Below are positions 513 through 19,210 of a stretch of DNA of 32,000 nucleotides, piece by piece; position 1 is the stretch's first letter, and the number at the start of each line of letters is the position of its first letter. Origin of the DNA: Prochlorococcus marinus str. NATL2A (GTDB lineage Bacteria; Cyanobacteriota; Cyanobacteriia; PCC-6307; Cyanobiaceae); contig NC_007335.2 in the NCBI RefSeq assembly GCF_000012465.1, positions 1,530,001 to 1,562,000 of the forward strand, read 5' to 3'. The notes under the pieces are model-generated. The model saw only the letters and a program-made list of their open reading frames with translations, was not told where the DNA came from and searched no databases. A program made the translations under genes and the position numbers.

Positions 513-527
513 TGAAAATGATTATCG
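513..527. promoter_or_regulatory. Zur/Fur-family operator candidate in the divergent znuC/znuA promoter
   Basis: TGAAAATGATTATCG matches 13/15 positions of the cyanobacterial Zur 7-1-7 consensus TGATAATNATTATCA (consensus quoted from memory). It lies 16 nt upstream of the GTG at 543 and 51 nt upstream of the znuC ATG at 462. Confidence 0.5.
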
Positions 528-542
528 TTTTAGATACGCTTT

Positions 543-2090
543 GTGTTTTTAACGTTGAATTTTTCAAATCAGTCCAAAAAGGTTAAACCCATAATCAATA
601 AAACAGTTCTCAAAAGTTCTCTTGTTGCTGGAGCATTTTTATTTTCTGGAATCAATCAGACAGCGCAAGCAAATACAAAATCAATTGTTGCTGTAGAGCC
701 ATTGGTTTGCGATGTTGTATCTGCGATTGCACCACCCTCTACGCCCGTGACCTGCTTAATTGACAGAAAGCAAGATGTTCATGATGTCAAGATCACTCCA
801 AGGCAAGCTCAAACACTAAAAAGTGCGAATCAAGTATTTACTCTTGGTTCAGAGATGACCCCTGCAATTAAAAAATGGTTGGATAATCCTTTAACTGTTG
901 TCGTTGGTGTAAGTGCAATAGAAATAGACGATCATGACGACCACGATGATCATGACGATCATTCAGCTGCTAAGCATGATGATCATGACGACCACGATGA
1001 TCATGACGATCATTCAGCTGCTAAGCATGATGATCATGACGACCACGATGATCATGACGATGCCCATGGAGAGGGAGCTTTTGAATGGGCTGGTGTTTTT
1101 GATCTTTCCGCAGGAGTCTACAAATGGTCTTTCGCCAAAGTTGATGGAGACTATGCTGATCCTGCGATGAAAATGGTTATTCTTAAGTCTGGTGATATTG
1201 AAGCATCAGAAGAGCTTGCTAAAGAATTATTAGGATCCAAAAATTCAGAAGTTAAGCGCAATAATGACAAACTTATTGCGCAGGACAAAGCCTACCTTCT
1301 TACATTTAATGAAAAGAAAGACATCACAACATTTACTGTAGAAATCAAAAAATCTGGTAAATACGCTTTCTTTACTGAGCATATGCCGTTTGAGTTTGAA
1401 GCCGATGAACATTTCTTTAAAGATGTTTCAGGCGACGATGTGGAACCGATTTCCCAAGTACCAGATGAAGGAGATCATCATCACCATGACCATGGAGGCT
1501 TAGATCCTCATATTTGGCATGATCCACATAACATCATCAAGATGGGAAATGTAATTTCTAAAAATATCAACAAAAAGATTTCATTCTTTGATAGAGAAAC
1601 TAAAAAAGTTTTAAAAGAAAGAACTCAATCTGTAAATTCCATTTTGAAAGATCTAGATCAATGGACTCAAGAACAAATAGCTACTATTCCTTCTGATCAA
1701 AGGACGATGGTTTCTAAGCACAAAGCCATGGAATATTATGGAGATGCATTTGGATTGAAGACCATGAGCCTACTAGATTTTCTTGGTGATTCATCCAGCC
1801 TTAGGCCTCAAACTATTTCAACTGTATTAGCTGAGCTTAAAGAAGAAAACGTGAAAGTTTTATTCGCTGAGCAAAAGCCTCCTTCAAAGCTATTGAGAAA
1901 CCTCAGTAGACAAACTTCCACTCCTATCGCATCAAATCAAATCTATGTTGACGGTCTAATGCCAACAGGGAATACTGTTTCAGTTGCTGTACATAACACC
2001 TGCACAATTGTTAATTCACTTGGTGGAGAATGTGATGAGCAAGAGGGCGATGAACTTGAGGGGAAATGGAATTCTTTAACTAATCCTTAA
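543..2090 (+). CDS. znuA: Periplasmic metal (zinc) binding protein, ZnuA/TroA cluster A-I family, with an expanded His/Asp-rich insertion of about 190 aa
   Basis: Signal-peptide-like N-terminus KSSLVAGAFLFSGINQTAQA. The LDPHIWHDPHN motif is typical of ZnuA-type binding proteins. His-rich tracts are 3x DHDDHDDHDDH and GDHHHHDHGG. Only GTG (543) or TTG (555) starts are available in frame. Confidence 0.8.
   Translation: MFLTLNFSNQSKKVKPIINKTVLKSSLVAGAFLFSGINQTAQANTKSIVAVEPLVCDVVSAIAPPSTPVTCLIDRKQDVHDVKITPRQAQTLKSANQVFTLGSEMTPAIKKWLDNPLTVVVGVSAIEIDDHDDHDDHDDHSAAKHDDHDDHDDHDDHSAAKHDDHDDHDDHDDAHGEGAFEWAGVFDLSAGVYKWSFAKVDGDYADPAMKMVILKSGDIEASEELAKELLGSKNSEVKRNNDKLIAQDKAYLLTFNEKKDITTFTVEIKKSGKYAFFTEHMPFEFEADEHFFKDVSGDDVEPISQVPDEGDHHHHDHGGLDPHIWHDPHNIIKMGNVISKNINKKISFFDRETKKVLKERTQSVNSILKDLDQWTQEQIATIPSDQRTMVSKHKAMEYYGDAFGLKTMSLLDFLGDSSSLRPQTISTVLAELKEENVKVLFAEQKPPSKLLRNLSRQTSTPIASNQIYVDGLMPTGNTVSVAVHNTCTIVNSLGGECDEQEGDELEGKWNSLTNP
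930..1061 (+). repeat. Perfect 51-bp in-frame tandem repeat, 2.6 copies, encoding DHDDHDDHDDHSAAKHD
   Basis: The unit gatcatgacgaccacgatgatcatgacgatcattcagctgctaagcatgat occurs at 930-980 and 981-1031. Its first 30 nt occur again at 1032-1061. All copies are identical. Confidence 0.95.
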
Positions 2091-2103
2091 TTTTTACAGA
2101 GAC

Positions 2104-2137
2104 AAACCCGTCTACATTTAAAAATGTAGACGGGTTT
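2104..2137 (+). terminator. Stable 14-bp stem-loop right after the znuA stop (terminator, attenuator or RNA-stability element)
   Basis: aaacccgtctacat (2104-2117) pairs perfectly with atgtagacgggttt (2124-2137). No strong U-tract follows (gaaaaaaa), so this is not a textbook intrinsic terminator. Confidence 0.45.
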
Positions 2138-2144
2138 GAAAAAA

Positions 2145-2462
2145 ATGTTTCCAACTAAAGGATATAAAGTTTACAAACAACACTGGGAAGACCAGGCAAG
2201 TTTCATGGATAAACCACCATGGGATAAAGATAAGATATTAAAACTTACTGTCGCAACTGATTTTGATGACAATCTAAAAGAACTTCAATTTTCAAATCAT
2301 TCGCTGAAAAAAGAGAATAGCAAGCTTACAGTAAGACTAAAAGTTCCTTACAATTATCATGAGCTTGATGACTTTGAATTAAAATCACTTGAATTGTTGG
2401 GTATCCAAAAGAATTGGCTAACTGATATTTCTCTTGATAGCACTCATTGTTCCCATCGTTAA
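2145..2462 (+). CDS. Hypothetical protein (105 aa) between znuA and the COG0523 gene
   Basis: The ORF has an ATG at 2145 (the track start at 2136 is TTG, inside the hairpin). It ends 10 nt before the COG0523 ATG. I recognise no family motif; the C-terminus is THCSHR. Confidence 0.45.
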   Translation: MFPTKGYKVYKQHWEDQASFMDKPPWDKDKILKLTVATDFDDNLKELQFSNHSLKKENSKLTVRLKVPYNYHELDDFELKSLELLGIQKNWLTDISLDSTHCSHR

Positions 2463-2471
2463 TTAAAGAAA

Positions 2472-3854
2472 ATGAGCAACACGCAAAAAGTACCGGTTAC
2501 AATATTGACTGGTTTTCTAGGATCTGGCAAAACAACCCTACTCAATCGAATCCTGAGCGAAGAGCACGGTAAAAAAATAGCTGTTATTGAGAATGAATAT
2601 GGTGAAGTTGGCATTGATCAAGGATTAGTCATCAATGCTGATGAAGAGGTCTTCGAGATGTCCAATGGTTGCATTTGCTGCACCGTTCGTGGTGATCTTA
2701 TTCGTGTACTTGGAAACCTCATGAAGAGGCGAGACAAATTTGACTATGTATTAGTTGAAACTACTGGCCTTGCTGATCCTGGTCCTGTTGCTCAGACATT
2801 CTTTATGGACGATGAAATCCGTGAGGAGTTTTCACTTGATGGAATAGTCACACTTGTTGATGCAGCCCATATAGAGCAACAACTTGGTCGAAGTGATGAG
2901 AGTTCGGAGCAAGTTGCCTTTGCTGACGTCCTTGTCCTAAATAAAACCGATCTAGTTTCAGATGAATCACTCGACAACTTAGAATCACGGCTACGCGATA
3001 TGAATCGTATGGCTCGTGTCATACGTAGTAAACAAGCAGACGTCTCAATTGATACTGTGCTAAATCTAAGTGCTTTTGATCTAGATCAAGTACTTCAGCG
3101 TCGTCCAACTTTTCTTGAACCAGAATACCCATTTGAGTGGACAGGTGTTTTTTCACTTGAAAAAGGTCGCTATGAACTTACGCTCGAAGAAGGTCCAGAC
3201 CCCACAATGTCTCTCGTCCAGTTATTAGACCAAGGTAAAGACGAGACAGCTCTTAACACAGGTGCTGAATCATGCGTGAGACTCTACGCAGAACAAGAAC
3301 AACTTATGAATCCAGGGGATTTGGTTCCAGTCGGCAAGCATGTGAACCTTCAACTTCAATCCGAAGGGACTAAGTCCTTCTTCATAGATGTTGATAAGGC
3401 AAGGGATATAGGTCTATTCACGCAACATACAGCCGAAGAATTTAATATGAAATTAACGAAAGTAAATACTCCTTCTACAGACGAGATAGATAATGATCAG
3501 AACATCTCTACAATTTCTCCAATAGCTGAGAGGGTTTGGGTAGCTGAACACGAACACGATGACGAAGTAGGTTCATTCGCTATCGAGCGAGAGGGTGATG
3601 TCGATCCGGAGAAACTCAATAGATGGCTAAGTCGACTTTTGTCTGAGAAAGGTGTAGATATATTTCGCACTAAAGGTTTCATTAGTTATGCGGGTGAATC
3701 TAAGCGAATAGTTTTTCAAGGAGTACACATGCTCTTCACAGCACAACCTGATAAAGAATGGGGCAATGAACCTCGCCGTAACCAACTCGTCTTTATCGGT
3801 AGAAATCTTGATGAAGCAGAAATGATCAAGGAGTTTGATAAATGTCTGGTATAG
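2472..3854 (+). CDS. COG0523-family G3E GTPase (CobW/YjiA/ZigA-like putative zinc metallochaperone) with a linker insertion of about 110 aa
   Basis: Walker A GFLGSGKTT, metal-binding CICC (CxCC), Walker B ETTGLADP and the NKTD specificity motif are all present. The C-terminal CobW_C-like segment reads GVDIFRTKGFISYAGESKRIVFQGVHMLF. Confidence 0.85.
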   Translation: MSNTQKVPVTILTGFLGSGKTTLLNRILSEEHGKKIAVIENEYGEVGIDQGLVINADEEVFEMSNGCICCTVRGDLIRVLGNLMKRRDKFDYVLVETTGLADPGPVAQTFFMDDEIREEFSLDGIVTLVDAAHIEQQLGRSDESSEQVAFADVLVLNKTDLVSDESLDNLESRLRDMNRMARVIRSKQADVSIDTVLNLSAFDLDQVLQRRPTFLEPEYPFEWTGVFSLEKGRYELTLEEGPDPTMSLVQLLDQGKDETALNTGAESCVRLYAEQEQLMNPGDLVPVGKHVNLQLQSEGTKSFFIDVDKARDIGLFTQHTAEEFNMKLTKVNTPSTDEIDNDQNISTISPIAERVWVAEHEHDDEVGSFAIEREGDVDPEKLNRWLSRLLSEKGVDIFRTKGFISYAGESKRIVFQGVHMLFTAQPDKEWGNEPRRNQLVFIGRNLDEAEMIKEFDKCLV

Positions 3855-4915
3855 AAGCATTTAGTCCCAAGGGAATGCTTCATGAATGTTGGTCTGCTCA
3901 AGCTAACGACTACGCGATTGTCTGCGGCTGGGCACTACAAGGTAAAACTTTTTTAGTAGGTGATGTCGCTGGTGGGCTTTATGCATTTGAGGGAATATCT
4001 GGAAAGCTCATTTGGCAAATAAAAGACATACATAAAGGTGGCTTACTCGCAATGTCTATACATCCAAATGGAAAGACTTTTGCAACTGCTGGCCAAGATG
4101 GACATGTAAATATATGGGAAAGCCAAAAGGGTACGTCAACTAAAACTTTGGAACTTGGGAAAGGATGGGTTGAGCACATCAAGTGGTCCCCAGACGGAAA
4201 ATTTTTAGCTGTAGTTTTTACTAAATACGTCTATGTTTTTGATGATAAAGGTCAAGAACATTGGCGATCAGAGGAGCATCCCAGTACTGTCAGCGCGATT
4301 GCTTGGTCTAATTCAAATGAATTAGCAACAGCATGCTATGGCCAAGTCACTTTTTTTGATGTAGTAAATGACAAGATCAATCAAAAGTTGGAATGGCGAG
4401 GCTCACTAGTATCTATGGTGCTTAGTCCAGATGGAGACATAGTGGCATGCGGCAGCCAAGATAATTCTGTTCATTTCTGGCGTCGTTCAACTGATCAAGA
4501 TTCAGAGATGACAGGCTACCCAGGTAAACCAAGTCACCTAGCTTTTGATCAAACCGGCACAGTCCTTGCTACTGGGGGTAGTGATCGCGTGACGGTTTGG
4601 AGTTTTCAAGGCGATGGTCCTGAGGGAACTGTACCAGGAGAGTTAATGCTTCATACGGAACCCATTTCATGTCTTGCTTTCTCACACAGCGGGATGCTTT
4701 TAGCTTCTGGCTCGAGAGATGGTTCAGTTTTTTCTTGGTTTCTCCAAAAAGATGGTCAGGGTGATCCAGTTGGTGGTGCATTTGCCGGTGACCTTGTAAG
4801 CCAAATCGCTTGGCACCCTGATGACACTGCCTTGGCTGCAATAAATGCAAACGGAGGAATTACGGTTTGGGAGTTTAAGGTTCGGACGAAAACGTCACCT
4901 CAAGGATTCGGATAA
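3842..4915 (+). CDS. WD40-repeat beta-propeller protein
   Basis: WD-like blades recur: ATAGQDGHVNIWE, ACGSQDNSVHFWR, ATGGSDRVTVWS, ASGSRDGSVFSWF and NANGGITVWE. The ATG overlaps the COG0523 3' end by 13 nt. Confidence 0.8.
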   Translation: MSGIEAFSPKGMLHECWSAQANDYAIVCGWALQGKTFLVGDVAGGLYAFEGISGKLIWQIKDIHKGGLLAMSIHPNGKTFATAGQDGHVNIWESQKGTSTKTLELGKGWVEHIKWSPDGKFLAVVFTKYVYVFDDKGQEHWRSEEHPSTVSAIAWSNSNELATACYGQVTFFDVVNDKINQKLEWRGSLVSMVLSPDGDIVACGSQDNSVHFWRRSTDQDSEMTGYPGKPSHLAFDQTGTVLATGGSDRVTVWSFQGDGPEGTVPGELMLHTEPISCLAFSHSGMLLASGSRDGSVFSWFLQKDGQGDPVGGAFAGDLVSQIAWHPDDTALAAINANGGITVWEFKVRTKTSPQGFG

Positions 4916-5639: not shown

Positions 5640-6269
5640 ATGAATTTAATAGCTAGTTATAGAAATAAAGGTTTTGAATCTGTTGCAGATGGTGTGATGT
5701 CATTTTTCGATCGTCGCACAGACTTGCATCGCAATGGAATCGCCTTCAGCAATGGATCAAATAATGATTCAGATCCTGCAAAAATTTCTACTGATATCAG
5801 CCTTGTAGCCATAGATCGTACTGACCCAGAAGCATTTGCACTCTCTGAGGTCATTGTAAGAGGAGTCGATGCTGGGCTTAAAAAATACCTCCAAGATCGT
5901 CCTCTCTTTAATGAGTGCTCCCCAGAACAATCACTATTTGTCAATCCAATTTTCAACATACAACGATACGCTCCTGGAGAAGGATTTAAGAAATGGCACT
6001 GTGACTGGACGATTAGCGAAGAAGCAACCGAACCGGTTCATAGAGTTTTAGCCTGGATTCTCTATTGCAATGATGTCGAATCTGGAGGTACAGAATTCCA
6101 CTGGCAGGAATATCATGAGACAGCTGAACGAGGAAAATTAGTTATTTTCCCTGCTGGATTGACACATATACATAGAGGCAGAGTCAACAAAATTCATTCC
6201 AAAACAATTGCAACTGGTTGGATAAATGCAGGTTCAAGAGACTCATACATTTCCAGACTGGCAAGTTAA
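5640..6269 (+). CDS. 2OG-Fe(II) oxygenase superfamily protein, of the type common in picocyanobacterial islands and cyanophages
   Basis: An HxD motif (WHCDW), distal His candidates (GGTEFHW, LTHIHRG) and the Arg in HIHRGR fit the 2OG-oxygenase facial triad plus 2OG-binding Arg. Confidence 0.6.
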   Translation: MNLIASYRNKGFESVADGVMSFFDRRTDLHRNGIAFSNGSNNDSDPAKISTDISLVAIDRTDPEAFALSEVIVRGVDAGLKKYLQDRPLFNECSPEQSLFVNPIFNIQRYAPGEGFKKWHCDWTISEEATEPVHRVLAWILYCNDVESGGTEFHWQEYHETAERGKLVIFPAGLTHIHRGRVNKIHSKTIATGWINAGSRDSYISRLAS

Positions 6270-6541
6270 TTAATAGAAAAAATATTCTTAAACAATTATT
6301 TTTTCAAGGTAGAGACAAGATTGCTCCATCTGTCCATAGAGTCCATCAGCAATAATTTTTACCCAATCAGACTTTATGCTTGAAAAGACAAAAAGTTTCT
6401 GATCTAAATTGATAATAATTTTTGAAGAAACTTCAACAGATTGAGAATGAATTGTGTATTATCTACAGACGTTCAGCTCTATTCGAGTCGCAGTTAGATT
6501 CAAGCCATGGAACGGGGACTTGAACAATGACAATTTTTCTA

Positions 6542-17500: not shown

Positions 17501-19210
17501 ATGCCTTTCAAAATTTCTCGCCAAGCCTATGCAGAGACTTATGGTCCGACGAAAGGCGATCGCATTAGACTTGCAGATACGGACTTAATACTCGAAGTTG
17601 AACAGGATCATACTCACTATGGAGACGAAGTTAAATTTGGTGGGGGAAAAGTTATTCGTGATGGGATGGGACAATCACAACAAAGTAGAGACAATGGAGT
17701 AGTAGATACAGTTATCACAAATGCGCTAATTTTGGATTGGTGGGGAATTGTTAAAGCTGATATTGGCATCAAAGACGGAAAAATCTCAGGTATCGGAAAA
17801 GCTGGAAATCCGGATACTCAAGAAGGTGTCAACATTATTGTAGGCGCCAGTACTGAAGCAATCGCAGGAGAAGGAAGCATTATTACTGCAGGAGCTATTG
17901 ATAGTCACATTCACTTTATCTGTCCGCAACAAATAGAAACTGCTTTAGCTAGTGGGGTTACCACAATGCTCGGAGGAGGGACAGGACCAGCAACAGGTAC
18001 TAATGCAACGACATGTACACCTGGAGCATTTCACATCTCAAGAATGCTGCAATCTGCAGAGGGATTTCCTGTTAATTTGGGATTCTTTGGAAAAGGCAAT
18101 GCAACTAACAAAGCAGCATTAGAAGAACAAGTAAGAGCAGGTGCTTGTGGGTTAAAACTGCATGAAGACTGGGGAACAACACCGGCCTGTATTGATTCCT
18201 GCCTAAGTGTTGCAGATCAACTAGACGTACAAGTTTGTATTCATACAGATACCCTAAATGAAGCTGGTTTTGTTGAAGATACAATTAAGGCAATAAGAGG
18301 GCGAACAATTCATACCTTCCATACAGAAGGAGCGGGAGGTGGTCACGCTCCCGACATTATCAAAATTTGTGGAGAATCAAATGTGATTCCCAGCAGTACA
18401 AATCCAACTAGGCCTTTCACTCTAAATACTCTTGAAGAGCATTTAGACATGTTGATGGTGTGTCATCATTTAGATCCCAAAATTCCAGAGGATGTTGCAT
18501 TTGCTGAGTCAAGAATACGTCGTGAAACTATTGCTGCTGAGGACATACTCCACGACTTAGGAGCCTTTTCTATTATTGCTAGTGACTCCCAGGCTATGGG
18601 TAGAGTTGGGGAGGTGATTAGCCGGACTTTTCAAACTGCTCATAAAATGAAAGTTCAAAGAGGAGCCTTACCTGAGGATAATCAAAGGAATGATAATCAT
18701 CGTCTGAAAAGATATATCTCAAAAGTCACTATTAATCCTGCGATAGCTCATGGAATCAGTGCTCATGTTGGTTCGGTAGAAGTTGGAAAACTAGCAGACT
18801 TAGTACTTTGGAAGCCAGGTTTTTTTGGAATTAAACCTGACTTAGTAGTCAAAGGAGGATGTATCGCATGGGCTCAAATGGGAGATGCAAATGCCTCGAT
18901 TCCTACTCCACAACCAGTTCATGGTCGTCCAATGTTTTCTTCCTTTGGAAAGGCAATAAATCCTACATGTCTGACTTTCTTAAGCGAGAGTGCAATAGAC
19001 GCTGGTGTCCCTGAACGACTCAAATTGGAACGTTCTTATGCTCCCGTTAAAGACACAAGAAAAATATCTAAACAATCAATGAAACTTAATGATGCAAGAC
19101 CAAAAATCGAAGTAGACCCCCAAACATATGAAGTTTTTGCAAACGGAGAGCTTTTGACTTGTGAACCTGCTGAATTACTACCACTTGCACAAAGATATCT
19201 ATTACTTTAG
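17501..19210 (+). CDS. ureC: Urease alpha subunit
   Basis: It has the amidohydrolase nickel ligands ([16 protein letters not shown] with the carbamylated Lys, IHTDTLNE), MVCHHL and a 569-aa length. Confidence 0.97.

What the first reader, a model, noticed from the sequence alone, without database searches (positions are those of the whole stretch)
1074..3461. The same ~100-125-aa module sits in the His-rich-loop position of both the periplasmic ZnuA-like protein and the cytoplasmic COG0523 GTPase
ZnuA-like residues ~178-305 (nt 1074-1457) and COG0523 residues ~218-330 (nt 3123-3461) align by eye.
- N-end: GAFEWAGVFDLSAGVY versus YPFEWTGVFSLEKGRY.
- Middle: DPAMKMVIL versus DPTMSLVQL.
- C-end: TFTVEIKKSGKYAFFTEHMPFEFE versus SFFIDVDKARDIGLFTQHTAEEFN.
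- The spacing from FEW to FT-x-H is nearly identical (100 versus 98 residues).

Ordinary ZnuA proteins have only a short His/Asp loop just before the DPHxW motif. Ordinary COG0523 proteins have only a short His-rich linker between the GTPase and CobW_C domains. Here both positions hold the same apparently folded module, still flanked by His-rich tracts (3x DHDDHDDHDDH and GDHHHHDH in ZnuA; AEHEHDDE in COG0523).

Two adjacent zinc-handling proteins in different compartments sharing one module suggests domain shuffling within the locus. It also suggests a common role, such as metal capture, metal hand-off or recognition of a shared partner. I do not recognise this module as a named domain.

Two speculative points:
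- There is a faint resemblance to ZinT/YodA motifs ([DE]W-G-V-[WF]; KY..F..H-x9/10-H).
- The 105-aa orphan ORF between the two genes (2145-2462) is module-sized. It shows a faint match to the C-terminal half (LTVRLKVPYNYHELDDFEL), so it could be a third, degenerate copy.
Basis: partly seen in the sequence, partly recalled or inferred. Interest (0 to 1): 0.72.

Follow-up and report, generated by a model that had tools for sequence, protein, structure and literature searches.

The report
Uncatalogued zinc/cobalt-transport accessory domain, two copies
The periplasmic zinc-binding protein and the neighbouring cytoplasmic metal-chaperone GTPase of this Prochlorococcus zinc operon each carry a copy of the same folded ~110-residue domain, which has no Pfam, NCBIfam or PDB match and also occurs in ZIP, CDF, CzcB, CbiM and CbtA metal transporters from bacteria and marine algae, so it is probably a general metal-handling module.

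Summary
ZnuA-like residues 177-290 and COG0523 residues 218-329 are homologous: BLASTP E=7e-8, profile-profile probability 97.5% (E=6e-12), and reciprocal HMM hits down to about 1e-11. AlphaFold models of both are confident (pLDDT 87 and 89) and share one strand-helix order.

The module matches no Pfam or NCBIfam model and no PDB sequence or fold. An exhaustive profile search found 674 protein clusters. Hosts among the best 137 include ZnuA (24), ZIP transporters (24, at least some eukaryotic), COG0523 (about 15), CzcB, CDF, CbiM and CbtA. About half have no other Pfam domain.

Glu, Asp, His and Glu-x-Glu residues are nearly invariant across 145 copies, and the flanks are His-rich. Prochlorococcus ZnuA variants with two tandem modules lack the upstream His/Asp repeat.

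I infer a Zn/Co capture, relay or sensing domain that sits where His-rich loops normally sit. Metal binding is untested.

- Intra-locus shuffling: modules cluster by host protein.
- ZinT kinship: no sequence or fold match.
- The 105-aa ORF as a third copy: profile probability 0.1-0.2%.

The COG0523 insert was noted in 2012. I found no report of its homology to the ZnuA insert or its wider distribution.

The parts
515..531 (.). Zur-box-like near-palindrome AAAATGAT-T-ATCGTTTT in the znuC-znuA intergenic region
   Evidence: Read directly from the sequence; the 8-1-8 arms match at 7 of 8 positions. Barnett et al. 2012 (PMC3323870) report a putative Zur box between znuC and znuA in Prochlorococcus. 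In related contigs, zur (FUR), znuB and znuC lie immediately upstream.
543..2090 (+). ZnuA-like cluster A-I periplasmic metal-binding protein (515 aa), host of module copy 1
   Evidence: Pfam ZnuA PF01297, E=7.7e-44, split into two pieces. The N-terminal hydrophobic leader ends in AQA|N. The canonical ligand positions are H80, H323, H393 and D470. Solved ZnuA/TroA/PsaA structures align only outside residues ~126-298.
927..1061 (+). His/Asp-rich tandem repeat (DHDDHDDHDDHSAAKH) immediately upstream of module copy 1
   Evidence: TRF finds a period of 51 nt, 2.6 copies, 100% matches. The length varies between strains, giving proteins of 498-543 aa.
1071..1412 (+). Module copy 1, core (ZnuA residues 177-290). 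Conserved residues: F180 E181 W182 G184, D202 P203 M205, H280 P282 E284 F285 E286, H290
   Evidence: AlphaFold model: pLDDT 87.2, pTM 0.80, eight strands plus one helix.
1413..1457 (+). C-terminal extension of the non-COG0523 (ZnuA/ZIP-type) form of the module (FFKDVSGDDVEPISQ; family consensus H-x-L-x-D-x-x-G-x-D-x-E-P)
   Evidence: Conserved in ZnuA-type and ZIP-type copies (consensus of A4). Absent from the COG0523 copy.
1470..1493 (+). His tract GDHHHHDH between module copy 1 and the DPH metal-ligand motif
   Evidence: residues 310-317. Conserved across Prochlorococcus loci.
2145..2462 (+). Conserved 105-aa gene of unknown function between the two hosts. It is NOT a module copy
   Evidence: 335 homologous clusters, listed hits mostly 104-118 aa. 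Module HMM score is about 1 bit. hhalign probability is 0.1-0.2%. No Pfam or NCBIfam match.
2472..3854 (+). COG0523 G3E GTPase (460 aa), host of module copy 2. CICC motif at residues 67-70
   Evidence: Pfam cobW E=1.4e-61 (residues 8-184) and CobW_C E=3.2e-26 (367-459). YjiA aligns to residues 7-214 and 363-452. CICC position.
3123..3458 (+). Module copy 2 (COG0523 residues 218-329). Conserved residues: F221 E222 W223 G225, D243 P244 M246, H319, E322 E323 F324. Residues conserved only in the COG0523 subtype: C268 and H290
   Evidence: AlphaFold model from a COG0523-only alignment: pLDDT 89.4, pTM 0.81, same order of secondary-structure elements.
3543..3566 (+). AEHEHDDE motif between module copy 2 and CobW_C
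   Evidence: residues 358-365. Invariant in homologues from cyanobacteria and Gammaproteobacteria MAGs.
3842..4915 (+). WD40 beta-propeller gene overlapping the COG0523 stop by 13 nt (conserved partner gene)
   Evidence: The COG0523-WD40 association was reported by Barnett et al. 2012.

Best explanation
Both segments are copies of one autonomously folding domain of about 110-130 residues: a beta-sandwich with a single helix. It is absent from Pfam, NCBIfam and the PDB. It is a promiscuous accessory module of Zn/Co-trafficking proteins.

Where it sits. The domain is inserted, or fused, where such proteins usually carry disordered His-rich tracts:
- the loop before the DPH ligand of ZnuA;
- the linker between the G-domain and CobW_C in COG0523;
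- the N-terminal side of ZIP transporters (behind hydrophobic signal-like leaders in the examples read), CzcB and CbtA;
- the C-terminal tail of a CDF and after the CbiM domain.

Most likely mechanism (inferred, not shown). The nearly invariant Glu (FEW), Asp (DPxM), His (F-T-E/Q-H) and Glu-x-Glu residues, together with the flanking His tracts, bind Zn2+ or Co2+ reversibly. The domain would then act as a capture-and-relay station, or an occupancy sensor, next to the host's primary site. That site is H80/H323/H393/D470 in ZnuA and the CICC site in the GTPase.

What this implies for the locus. In this Zur-controlled Prochlorococcus operon, the periplasmic binding protein and the cytoplasmic chaperone each keep their own long-established version of the domain. 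The two copies are not a recent local duplication.
For: Shown:
- Homology: BLASTP E=7e-8; hhalign probability 97.5%, E=6e-12; reciprocal HMM hits.
- Fold: both copies are predicted with confidence, pLDDT 87 and 89. Both have the element order b1-b2-b3-helix-b4-(b5)-b6-b7-b8. The COG0523 model used an alignment with no ZnuA-type sequences.
- Not catalogued: no Pfam or NCBIfam hit for either copy or for 137 family members. No PDB sequence hit. No Foldseek PDB hit with E<0.02 or TM>0.5.
- Distribution: 674 clusters at E<=1e-3 among 1.84 billion representatives. Partner domains are ZnuA 24, Zip 24, CobW_C 15, and one each of CzcB-type fusion protein (in an operon with outer-membrane-factor (OEP) genes and a second CzcB-type gene), CDF, CbtA and CbiM. 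All of these are Zn/Co uptake, efflux or chaperone proteins.
- Conservation over 145 copies: E 140, W 136, G 137, D 127, M 131, H 143, P 130, E 139, F 141, second E 106.
- Flanks: His makes up 8% of flanking residues versus 4% of whole proteins, and 97 of 143 modules have at least 3 His in a flank.
- Substitution: 14 Prochlorococcus ZnuA loci with two tandem modules have 1 His in the 60 residues upstream. The 66 single-module loci average 10.8. A second module therefore takes the place of the His/Asp repeat.
- Regulation: a Zur-box-like palindrome lies upstream. The orthologous Synechococcus WH8102 cluster synw0968-0973 is Zur-repressed (PMC9337993).

Inferred:
- In ZigA, a linker Glu in the motif PETEEY is modelled on the CxCC-bound Zn and gates GTP hydrolysis (PMC13001444). 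Here the module begins inside a similar-looking EPEYPFEW stretch. I did not align the two motifs. If they correspond, its N-terminal Glu would lie near the CICC site.
Against: - No metal-binding measurement exists for any member.
- I could not obtain model coordinates, so I have not shown that the conserved Glu, Asp, His and Glu residues cluster in space.
- Trp, Met, Gly, Pro and Phe are equally invariant and may simply form the core. The acidic and His residues could stabilise the fold or a protein interface instead.
- Flanks of the COG0523-type copies are only mildly His-rich (4%).
- The ZnuA-module model used an alignment that included COG0523-type sequences, so it is not independent of them.
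Confidence: 0.6

Rival explanations
1. Regulatory or sensor domain. The module binds metal only when metal is plentiful and then inhibits its host. It would block the ZnuA cleft or ZnuA docking to ZnuB, gate ZIP or CDF transport, or lock the GTPase. It would not feed metal to the primary site.
For: - A regulatory role has been proposed for the ZnuA His-rich loop, which occupies the same position (Wei et al. 2007, cited in PMC8786288).
- The COG0523 linker gates GTP hydrolysis in ZigA (PMC13001444).
- The module occurs on both uptake proteins (ZnuA, ZIP, CbiM, CbtA) and efflux proteins (CDF, CzcB). A sensor explains this more naturally than a one-directional relay.
Against: No data separate sensing from relay. 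The same conserved residues and His-rich flanks fit both readings. Tandem duplication in ZnuA and ZIP looks more like added capture capacity.
Confidence: 0.2
2. Protein-protein interaction or oligomerisation domain that does not bind metal itself. It might dock a partner or tether hosts together, with the flanking His tracts doing the metal chemistry.
For: - The fold is beta-sandwich-like, and the weak, non-significant Foldseek matches are jelly-roll capsid, lectin and CBM domains, which are typical binding scaffolds.
- Conserved WD40 and 105-aa genes accompany the Prochlorococcus COG0523.
Against: - The two copies in this locus are in different compartments.
- The module occurs in eukaryotic ZIPs, a Paenibacillus CDF and proteobacterial ZnuA and CzcB proteins. 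The proteobacterial ZnuA loci examined show no adjacent COG0523 gene; WD40 and 105-aa neighbours were not looked for at the other hosts.
- The invariant polar residues are Glu, Asp and His, which are typical metal ligands.
Confidence: 0.12
3. One reading: the module was recently shuffled between the two adjacent genes of this locus, possibly leaving a third degenerate copy in the 105-aa ORF, and it is distantly related to ZinT.
For: The two module-bearing genes are adjacent in 69 of the 80 best genomic loci.
Against: - The two copies are only about 25% identical. Each is much closer to copies in the same host family from other phyla.
- ORF versus module: hhalign probability 0.1-0.2%.
- No ZinT match by sequence or among the 50 Foldseek matches listed for either model.
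Confidence: 0.03

Closest known systems
The ~150-aa insert of cyanobacterial COG0523 'branch 1a' (Barnett, Millard, Ksibe, Scanlan, Schmid and Blindauer 2012, Front Microbiol 3:142)
   Same: It is the same segment of the same protein family. The authors described it as not His-rich, predicted 4-6 strands and 1-2 helices, suggested it might be a domain in its own right, found no InterPro match, and noted the neighbouring WD40 gene and the zur/znuABC cluster.
   Different: In the passages I retrieved by term search, that paper does not link it to the ZnuA insert or to any other protein. It gives no fold model and no conserved-residue set.
His-rich loops of ZnuA (Synechocystis 1PQ4, E. coli 2OSV) and His-rich linkers of COG0523 proteins
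   Same: They occupy the same positions in the hosts and are proposed to concentrate or sense zinc near the primary site. The module remains flanked by such tracts, and a second module replaces the tract in some strains.
   Different: Those loops are short, disordered and of low complexity. This is a confidently folded domain of at least 110 residues with a conserved core.
ZinT/YodA and the C-terminal ZinT domain of streptococcal AdcA
   Same: An accessory zinc-binding domain that works with, or is fused to, a cluster A-I zinc-binding protein.
   Different: There is no detectable sequence or fold similarity. ZinT is fused at the C-terminus rather than inserted in the loop. The NCBIfam AdcA model matches only the ZnuA body here. 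From my own knowledge, ZinT is a lipocalin-like barrel of about 190 residues.
HMA (heavy-metal-associated) domains shared by CopZ/Atx1 chaperones and P1B-ATPases
   Same: The same logic applies: one small metal-handling fold recurs in soluble chaperones and in membrane transporters of the same metal, often in tandem.
   Different: From my own knowledge, HMA is a ferredoxin-like fold with a CxxC site for Cu(I)/Zn. Here the fold is a beta-sandwich with Glu, Asp and His candidate ligands and no sequence relationship. I did not test this comparison directly.
Extracellular domain of mammalian ZIP4
   Same: It is an N-terminal ectodomain that precedes the ZIP transmembrane core and is implicated in zinc acquisition or sensing.
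   Different: From my own knowledge, the ZIP4 ectodomain is helical (HRD plus PAL-motif domain). The algal ZIP ectodomains found here are one or two copies of the beta-rich module.

Membership tests
Cluster A-I metal-binding protein (ZnuA/TroA, Pfam PF01297): host of copy 1 | Significant match to the family profile over both lobes | tested here: met
   PF01297 E=7.7e-44 in two stretches. Forty-two PDB relatives have E<=1e-3.
Cluster A-I metal-binding protein (ZnuA/TroA, Pfam PF01297): host of copy 1 | Three His (or two His) plus a carboxylate at the canonical ligand positions, and export to the periplasm | tested here: inconclusive
   H80 (QDVHD), H323 (DPHIW), H393 (SKHKA) and D470 (YVDGL) are present, and there is a hydrophobic leader. 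I assigned them by motif, not by structural alignment. Metal specificity (Zn, Mn or Co) is unresolved in the literature (PMC8786288).
COG0523 G3E GTPase: host of copy 2 | cobW G-domain plus CobW_C domain | tested here: met
   PF02492 E=1.4e-61 and PF07683 E=3.2e-26. YjiA matches with E=2.5e-62.
COG0523 G3E GTPase: host of copy 2 | Walker A motif and the CxCC metal motif | tested here: met
   GFLGSGKTT at residues 14-22 and CICC at 67-70.
ZinT/YodA (Pfam PF09223) | Sequence match to the ZinT profile | tested here: not met
   No ZinT hit for either module or for the 105-aa ORF, even at E<=10.
ZinT/YodA (Pfam PF09223) | Lipocalin-like fold | tested here: not met
Any catalogued domain (Pfam-A 2025, NCBIfam 20, PDB) | Profile or structure match covering the module | tested here: not met
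   None of the 137 family members has a Pfam family over the module. InterPro, CDD and the AlphaFold database were not searchable.
The module family defined here (alignment A1 and the profile search) | N-terminal F-E-W-x-G, central D-P-x-M, C-terminal F-[TA]-[EQ]-H-x-[PA]-x-E-F, with about 98-100 residues from F to H | tested here: met
   Both window copies carry every motif. Each matches the other subtype's HMM.
The module family defined here (alignment A1 and the profile search) | Binds a divalent metal | not testable with these tools
   Inferred only from host context, conserved Glu, Asp and His residues, and His-rich flanks.

The most novel reading that the evidence does not exclude
The module is a new-fold, specific Zn2+/Co2+-binding domain that serves as a common hand-off unit for metal trafficking on both sides of the membrane. 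In Prochlorococcus it would work in the periplasm on ZnuA and in the cytoplasm on COG0523. In marine algae it would work on ZIP ectodomains. In other bacteria it would work on CDF, CzcB, CbiM and CbtA. It would have been selected where Zn and Co are scarce, and in Prochlorococcus it would contribute to acquiring the cobalt that the cell strictly requires through this nominal zinc system.
Probability: 0.2. Interest if true: 0.85.

Novelty: new variant of a known kind. Interest (0 to 1): 0.64.

Why it matters
Zinc and cobalt are vanishingly scarce in the open ocean, and how Prochlorococcus and marine algae acquire them is unresolved. The metal specificity of this universal picocyanobacterial binding protein is still debated (PMC8786288).

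A single uncatalogued folded domain recurs in uptake proteins (ZnuA, ZIP, CbiM, CbtA), efflux proteins (CDF, CzcB) and a chaperone (COG0523), from bacteria to eukaryotic phytoplankton. This has three consequences:
- It gives a concrete, testable handle: express one 12-kDa domain and measure its metal binding.
- It explains the long-unexplained COG0523 'branch 1a' insert.
- It would improve annotation of several hundred protein clusters, about half of which currently have no recognised domain.

If the domain proves metal-specific, it could also serve as a marker of Zn/Co stress in metaproteomes.

Tried and rejected
- Model coordinates are not exposed. I could not superpose the two models or measure distances between conserved residues. 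Only the order of secondary-structure elements was compared.
- The mixed alignment A1 was too diverse for the genome scan. The ZnuA-type alignment A2 was used instead, so the genomic census is biased towards ZnuA-type copies.
- Viral contigs contain no relatives of either subtype.
- The 105-aa ORF as a third copy is rejected.
- ZinT kinship is rejected.
- Recent intra-locus shuffling is rejected.
- The NCBIfam ZrgA hit to ZnuA residues 87-177 (E=2e-9, far below the family cutoff) ends where the module begins (residue 177) and spans the His/Asp repeat. I dismissed it as compositional.
- The diatom protein ZCRP-B was considered as a possible carrier. It is NikA-like and unrelated.
- Full-text searches for the motif strings (FEWAG, FTEHMP, PFEWTG, FFTEH) and for ZnuA or COG0523 insert domains found no description beyond Barnett 2012.

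Full report
**Locus**

The window starts inside a zinc-uptake cluster of a low-light Prochlorococcus. The best genomic match is 100% identical to single-cell genome AG-402-C09, and matches to cultured strains MIT 1012 and MIT 0916 are 91-93% identical.

Related contigs show the gene order znuB(-), zur(+), znuC(-), then on the plus strand:
- a 515-aa ZnuA-like protein;
- a 105-aa ORF;
- a 460-aa COG0523 GTPase;
- a WD40 protein that overlaps the GTPase stop codon.

A near-palindrome, AAAATGAT-T-ATCGTTTT (515-531), lies between znuC and znuA. Barnett et al. 2012 predicted a Zur box at this position. The orthologous cluster in Synechococcus WH8102 is Zur-repressed (PMC9337993).

**Checking the observation**

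The similarity is not chance:
- BLASTP of the two segments gives E=7e-8.
- BLASTP of the two full proteins finds only this pair, E=5e-6.
- A profile of 7 ZnuA-type modules aligns to a profile of 25 COG0523-type modules with 97.5% probability, E=6e-12, over 102 columns.
- Each subtype HMM finds the other subtype end to end.

The segments are true insertions in their hosts:
- YjiA aligns to COG0523 residues 7-214 and 363-452. Residues 215-362 therefore replace a six-residue linker.
- Solved ZnuA, TroA and PsaA structures align only outside ZnuA residues ~126-298. The insert ends just before the DPH ligand motif (H323).

**Fold**

AlphaFold2 gives confident models for both copies:
- ZnuA copy: pLDDT 87.2, pTM 0.80.
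- COG0523 copy: pLDDT 89.4, pTM 0.81, from an alignment with no ZnuA-type sequence.

Both have three strands, one long helix and then four to five strands, in the same order. Coordinates are not exposed, so I could not superpose the models.

**Is it a known domain?**

I found no catalogue entry for it. Neither copy hits any Pfam-A or NCBIfam model, even at permissive thresholds. None of 137 family members has a Pfam family over the module.

In the literature I could search, Barnett et al. 2012 had already noticed the ~150-aa insert in cyanobacterial COG0523 'branch 1a'. They suggested it might be an unknown domain and noted the WD40 neighbour. In the passages I retrieved they make no link to ZnuA or any other protein. 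Motif-string and keyword searches found nothing else.

**How widespread is it?**

An exhaustive HMMER search of 1.84 billion representative proteins with the combined profile found 674 clusters at E<=1e-3 and 284 at E<=1e-10. Among the 137 best:
- ZnuA: 24, some with two tandem modules.
- ZIP zinc transporters: 24. They carry one or two modules at the N-terminus, behind hydrophobic signal-like leaders in the examples read. One lies on a eukaryotic contig next to a BOP1 gene, and others are Tara eukaryote transcripts.
- COG0523: about 15.
- One each of a CzcB-type membrane-fusion protein (in an operon with outer-membrane-factor (OEP) genes and a second CzcB-type gene), a Paenibacillus CDF (module after the ZT_dimer domain), CbiM, CbtA and a TPR protein.
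- About half have no other Pfam domain. Some are short stand-alone proteins with a hydrophobic N-terminal leader; others are gene fragments.

Every recognisable metal-handling partner (all but single TPR and Hint-domain hosts) acts on zinc or cobalt: uptake, efflux or chaperoning.

**Conserved residues and flanks**

Over 145 copies the near-invariant positions are:
- F-E-W-x-G (E 140, W 136, G 137);
- D-P-x-M (D 127, M 131);
- F-[TA]-[EQ]-H-x-P-x-E-F-E (H 143, P 130, E 139, F 141, second E 106).

In the window these are E181, W182, G184, D202, M205, H280, P282, E284, F285 and E286 (plus H290) in ZnuA. In COG0523 they are E222, W223, G225, D243, M246, H319, E322/E323 and F324. The COG0523 subtype also conserves a Cys (C268) and a His (H290).

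Many non-COG0523 copies instead have two Cys, at profile columns 59 and 73, consistent with a disulfide.

The flanks are His-rich: 8% His versus 4% in the whole proteins, and 97 of 143 modules have at least 3 His in a flank. Striking examples occur around the CDF, CbiM, CbtA, CzcB and TPR copies.

In 14 Prochlorococcus loci, including the HNLC1 and HNLC2 assemblies, ZnuA carries two tandem modules. The 60 residues upstream then contain a single His, against a mean of 10.8 in the 66 single-module loci. A second module thus takes the place of the His/Asp repeat. That repeat is itself a length-variable 51-nt tandem array.

**Evolution**

Modules cluster by host. Mean identity is 0.48 within ZnuA-type copies, 0.33 within COG0523-type copies and 0.26 between the two types. 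Nearest neighbours are nearly always of the same host type.

The ZnuA-type form occurs in Gammaproteobacteria, Rhodospirillales, Magnetovibrio, Halothiobacillaceae and Rhodobacteraceae without an adjacent module-bearing COG0523. The COG0523-type form also occurs in Gammaproteobacteria MAGs.

In Prochlorococcus the two module-bearing genes are adjacent in 69 of the 80 best loci. This co-occurrence is conserved, but it does not result from recent shuffling within the locus.

**The 105-aa ORF**

It is a genuine, conserved gene: 335 clusters, listed hits mostly 104-118 aa. It has no detectable relationship to the module, scoring about 1 bit against the HMMs and 0.1-0.2% by hhalign. Its function remains unknown.

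**Mechanism**

Shown:
- The segments are one homologous, folded, uncatalogued domain.
- It lies in the His-rich-loop position of two Zur-cluster proteins that act in different compartments.
- It belongs to a family associated almost exclusively with Zn/Co-handling proteins.
- It has invariant Glu, Asp and His residues and His-rich flanks.
- It can replace a His/Asp tract.

Inferred:
- It binds Zn2+ or Co2+ reversibly.
- It relays the metal to the host's primary site or senses its occupancy.

For COG0523, recent work on ZigA models a linker Glu (motif PETEEY) on the CxCC-bound zinc and shows that it gates GTP hydrolysis (PMC13001444). Here the module starts within a similar-looking EPEYPFEW stretch. 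I did not align the two motifs. If they correspond, its conserved N-terminal Glu would lie close to the CICC site.

I cannot separate relay from sensor, and I cannot exclude a purely structural or docking role. The metal is also uncertain. Zinc is indicated by Zur, ZIP, CDF and CzcB. Cobalt is indicated by CbiM and CbtA, and by the reported cobalt competition at this Prochlorococcus binding protein (PMC8786288).

**Verdict**

It is partly wrong: there was no local shuffling, there is no ZinT link and there is no third copy.

One half of it, the COG0523 insert, was flagged in 2012. I found no description of the homology to ZnuA or of the broad distribution.

Noticed in passing
window 6467-6524 (+): Glutamine-II riboswitch aptamer (Rfam RF01704, 65.8 bits against a gathering score of 33, E=6e-14). 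It lies downstream of the 2OG-Fe(II) oxygenase gene (5640-6269).
   Followed up: no
window 17656-17942 (-): Full-length match to Rfam RF02514, the 5' ureB small RNA (90.8 bits, E=1e-22). I did not examine the genes around it.
   Followed up: no
window 2145-2462 (+): The 105-aa ORF between znuA and COG0523 is a conserved gene (335 clusters; listed hits mostly 104-118 aa) with no Pfam or NCBIfam match. Conserved motifs include HWEDQA, FMDKPPW, PYNY and a C-terminal HCS. Its function is unknown, and by position it probably belongs to the Zur regulon.
   Followed up: partly
window 3842-4915 (+): A WD40 beta-propeller gene overlaps the COG0523 stop codon by 13 nt, which suggests translational coupling. 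The COG0523-WD40 pairing is conserved in related contigs and was noted by Barnett et al. 2012. Its role is unknown.
   Followed up: partly
window 927-1061 (+); loci L008-L087: The His/Asp-rich tract of ZnuA is encoded by a perfect 51-nt tandem repeat (2.6 copies). Its copy number differs between closely related strains, giving proteins of 498-543 aa. It is a hypervariable metal-binding tract.
   Followed up: partly
L061, L081 (Prochlorococcus HNLC2 and HNLC1) and 12 further loci: ZnuA in these Prochlorococcus genomes, which include two assemblies from high-nutrient low-chlorophyll waters, carries two tandem modules joined by a 26-38-residue linker and lacks the upstream His/Asp repeat.
   Followed up: partly
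L085 (Nitrosopumilus MAG) and L045 (Pelagibacteraceae single-cell genome): ZnuA-type modules 71-77% identical to the Prochlorococcus copy appear in assemblies labelled as an archaeon and as SAR11. This may be bin or well contamination, or horizontal transfer. I did not resolve it.
   Followed up: no
window 515-531: The Zur-box-like palindrome ends only 12 nt upstream of the GTG at 543 that gene callers use as the znuA start. Either the operator overlaps the ribosome-binding region or the true start lies further downstream.
   Followed up: no
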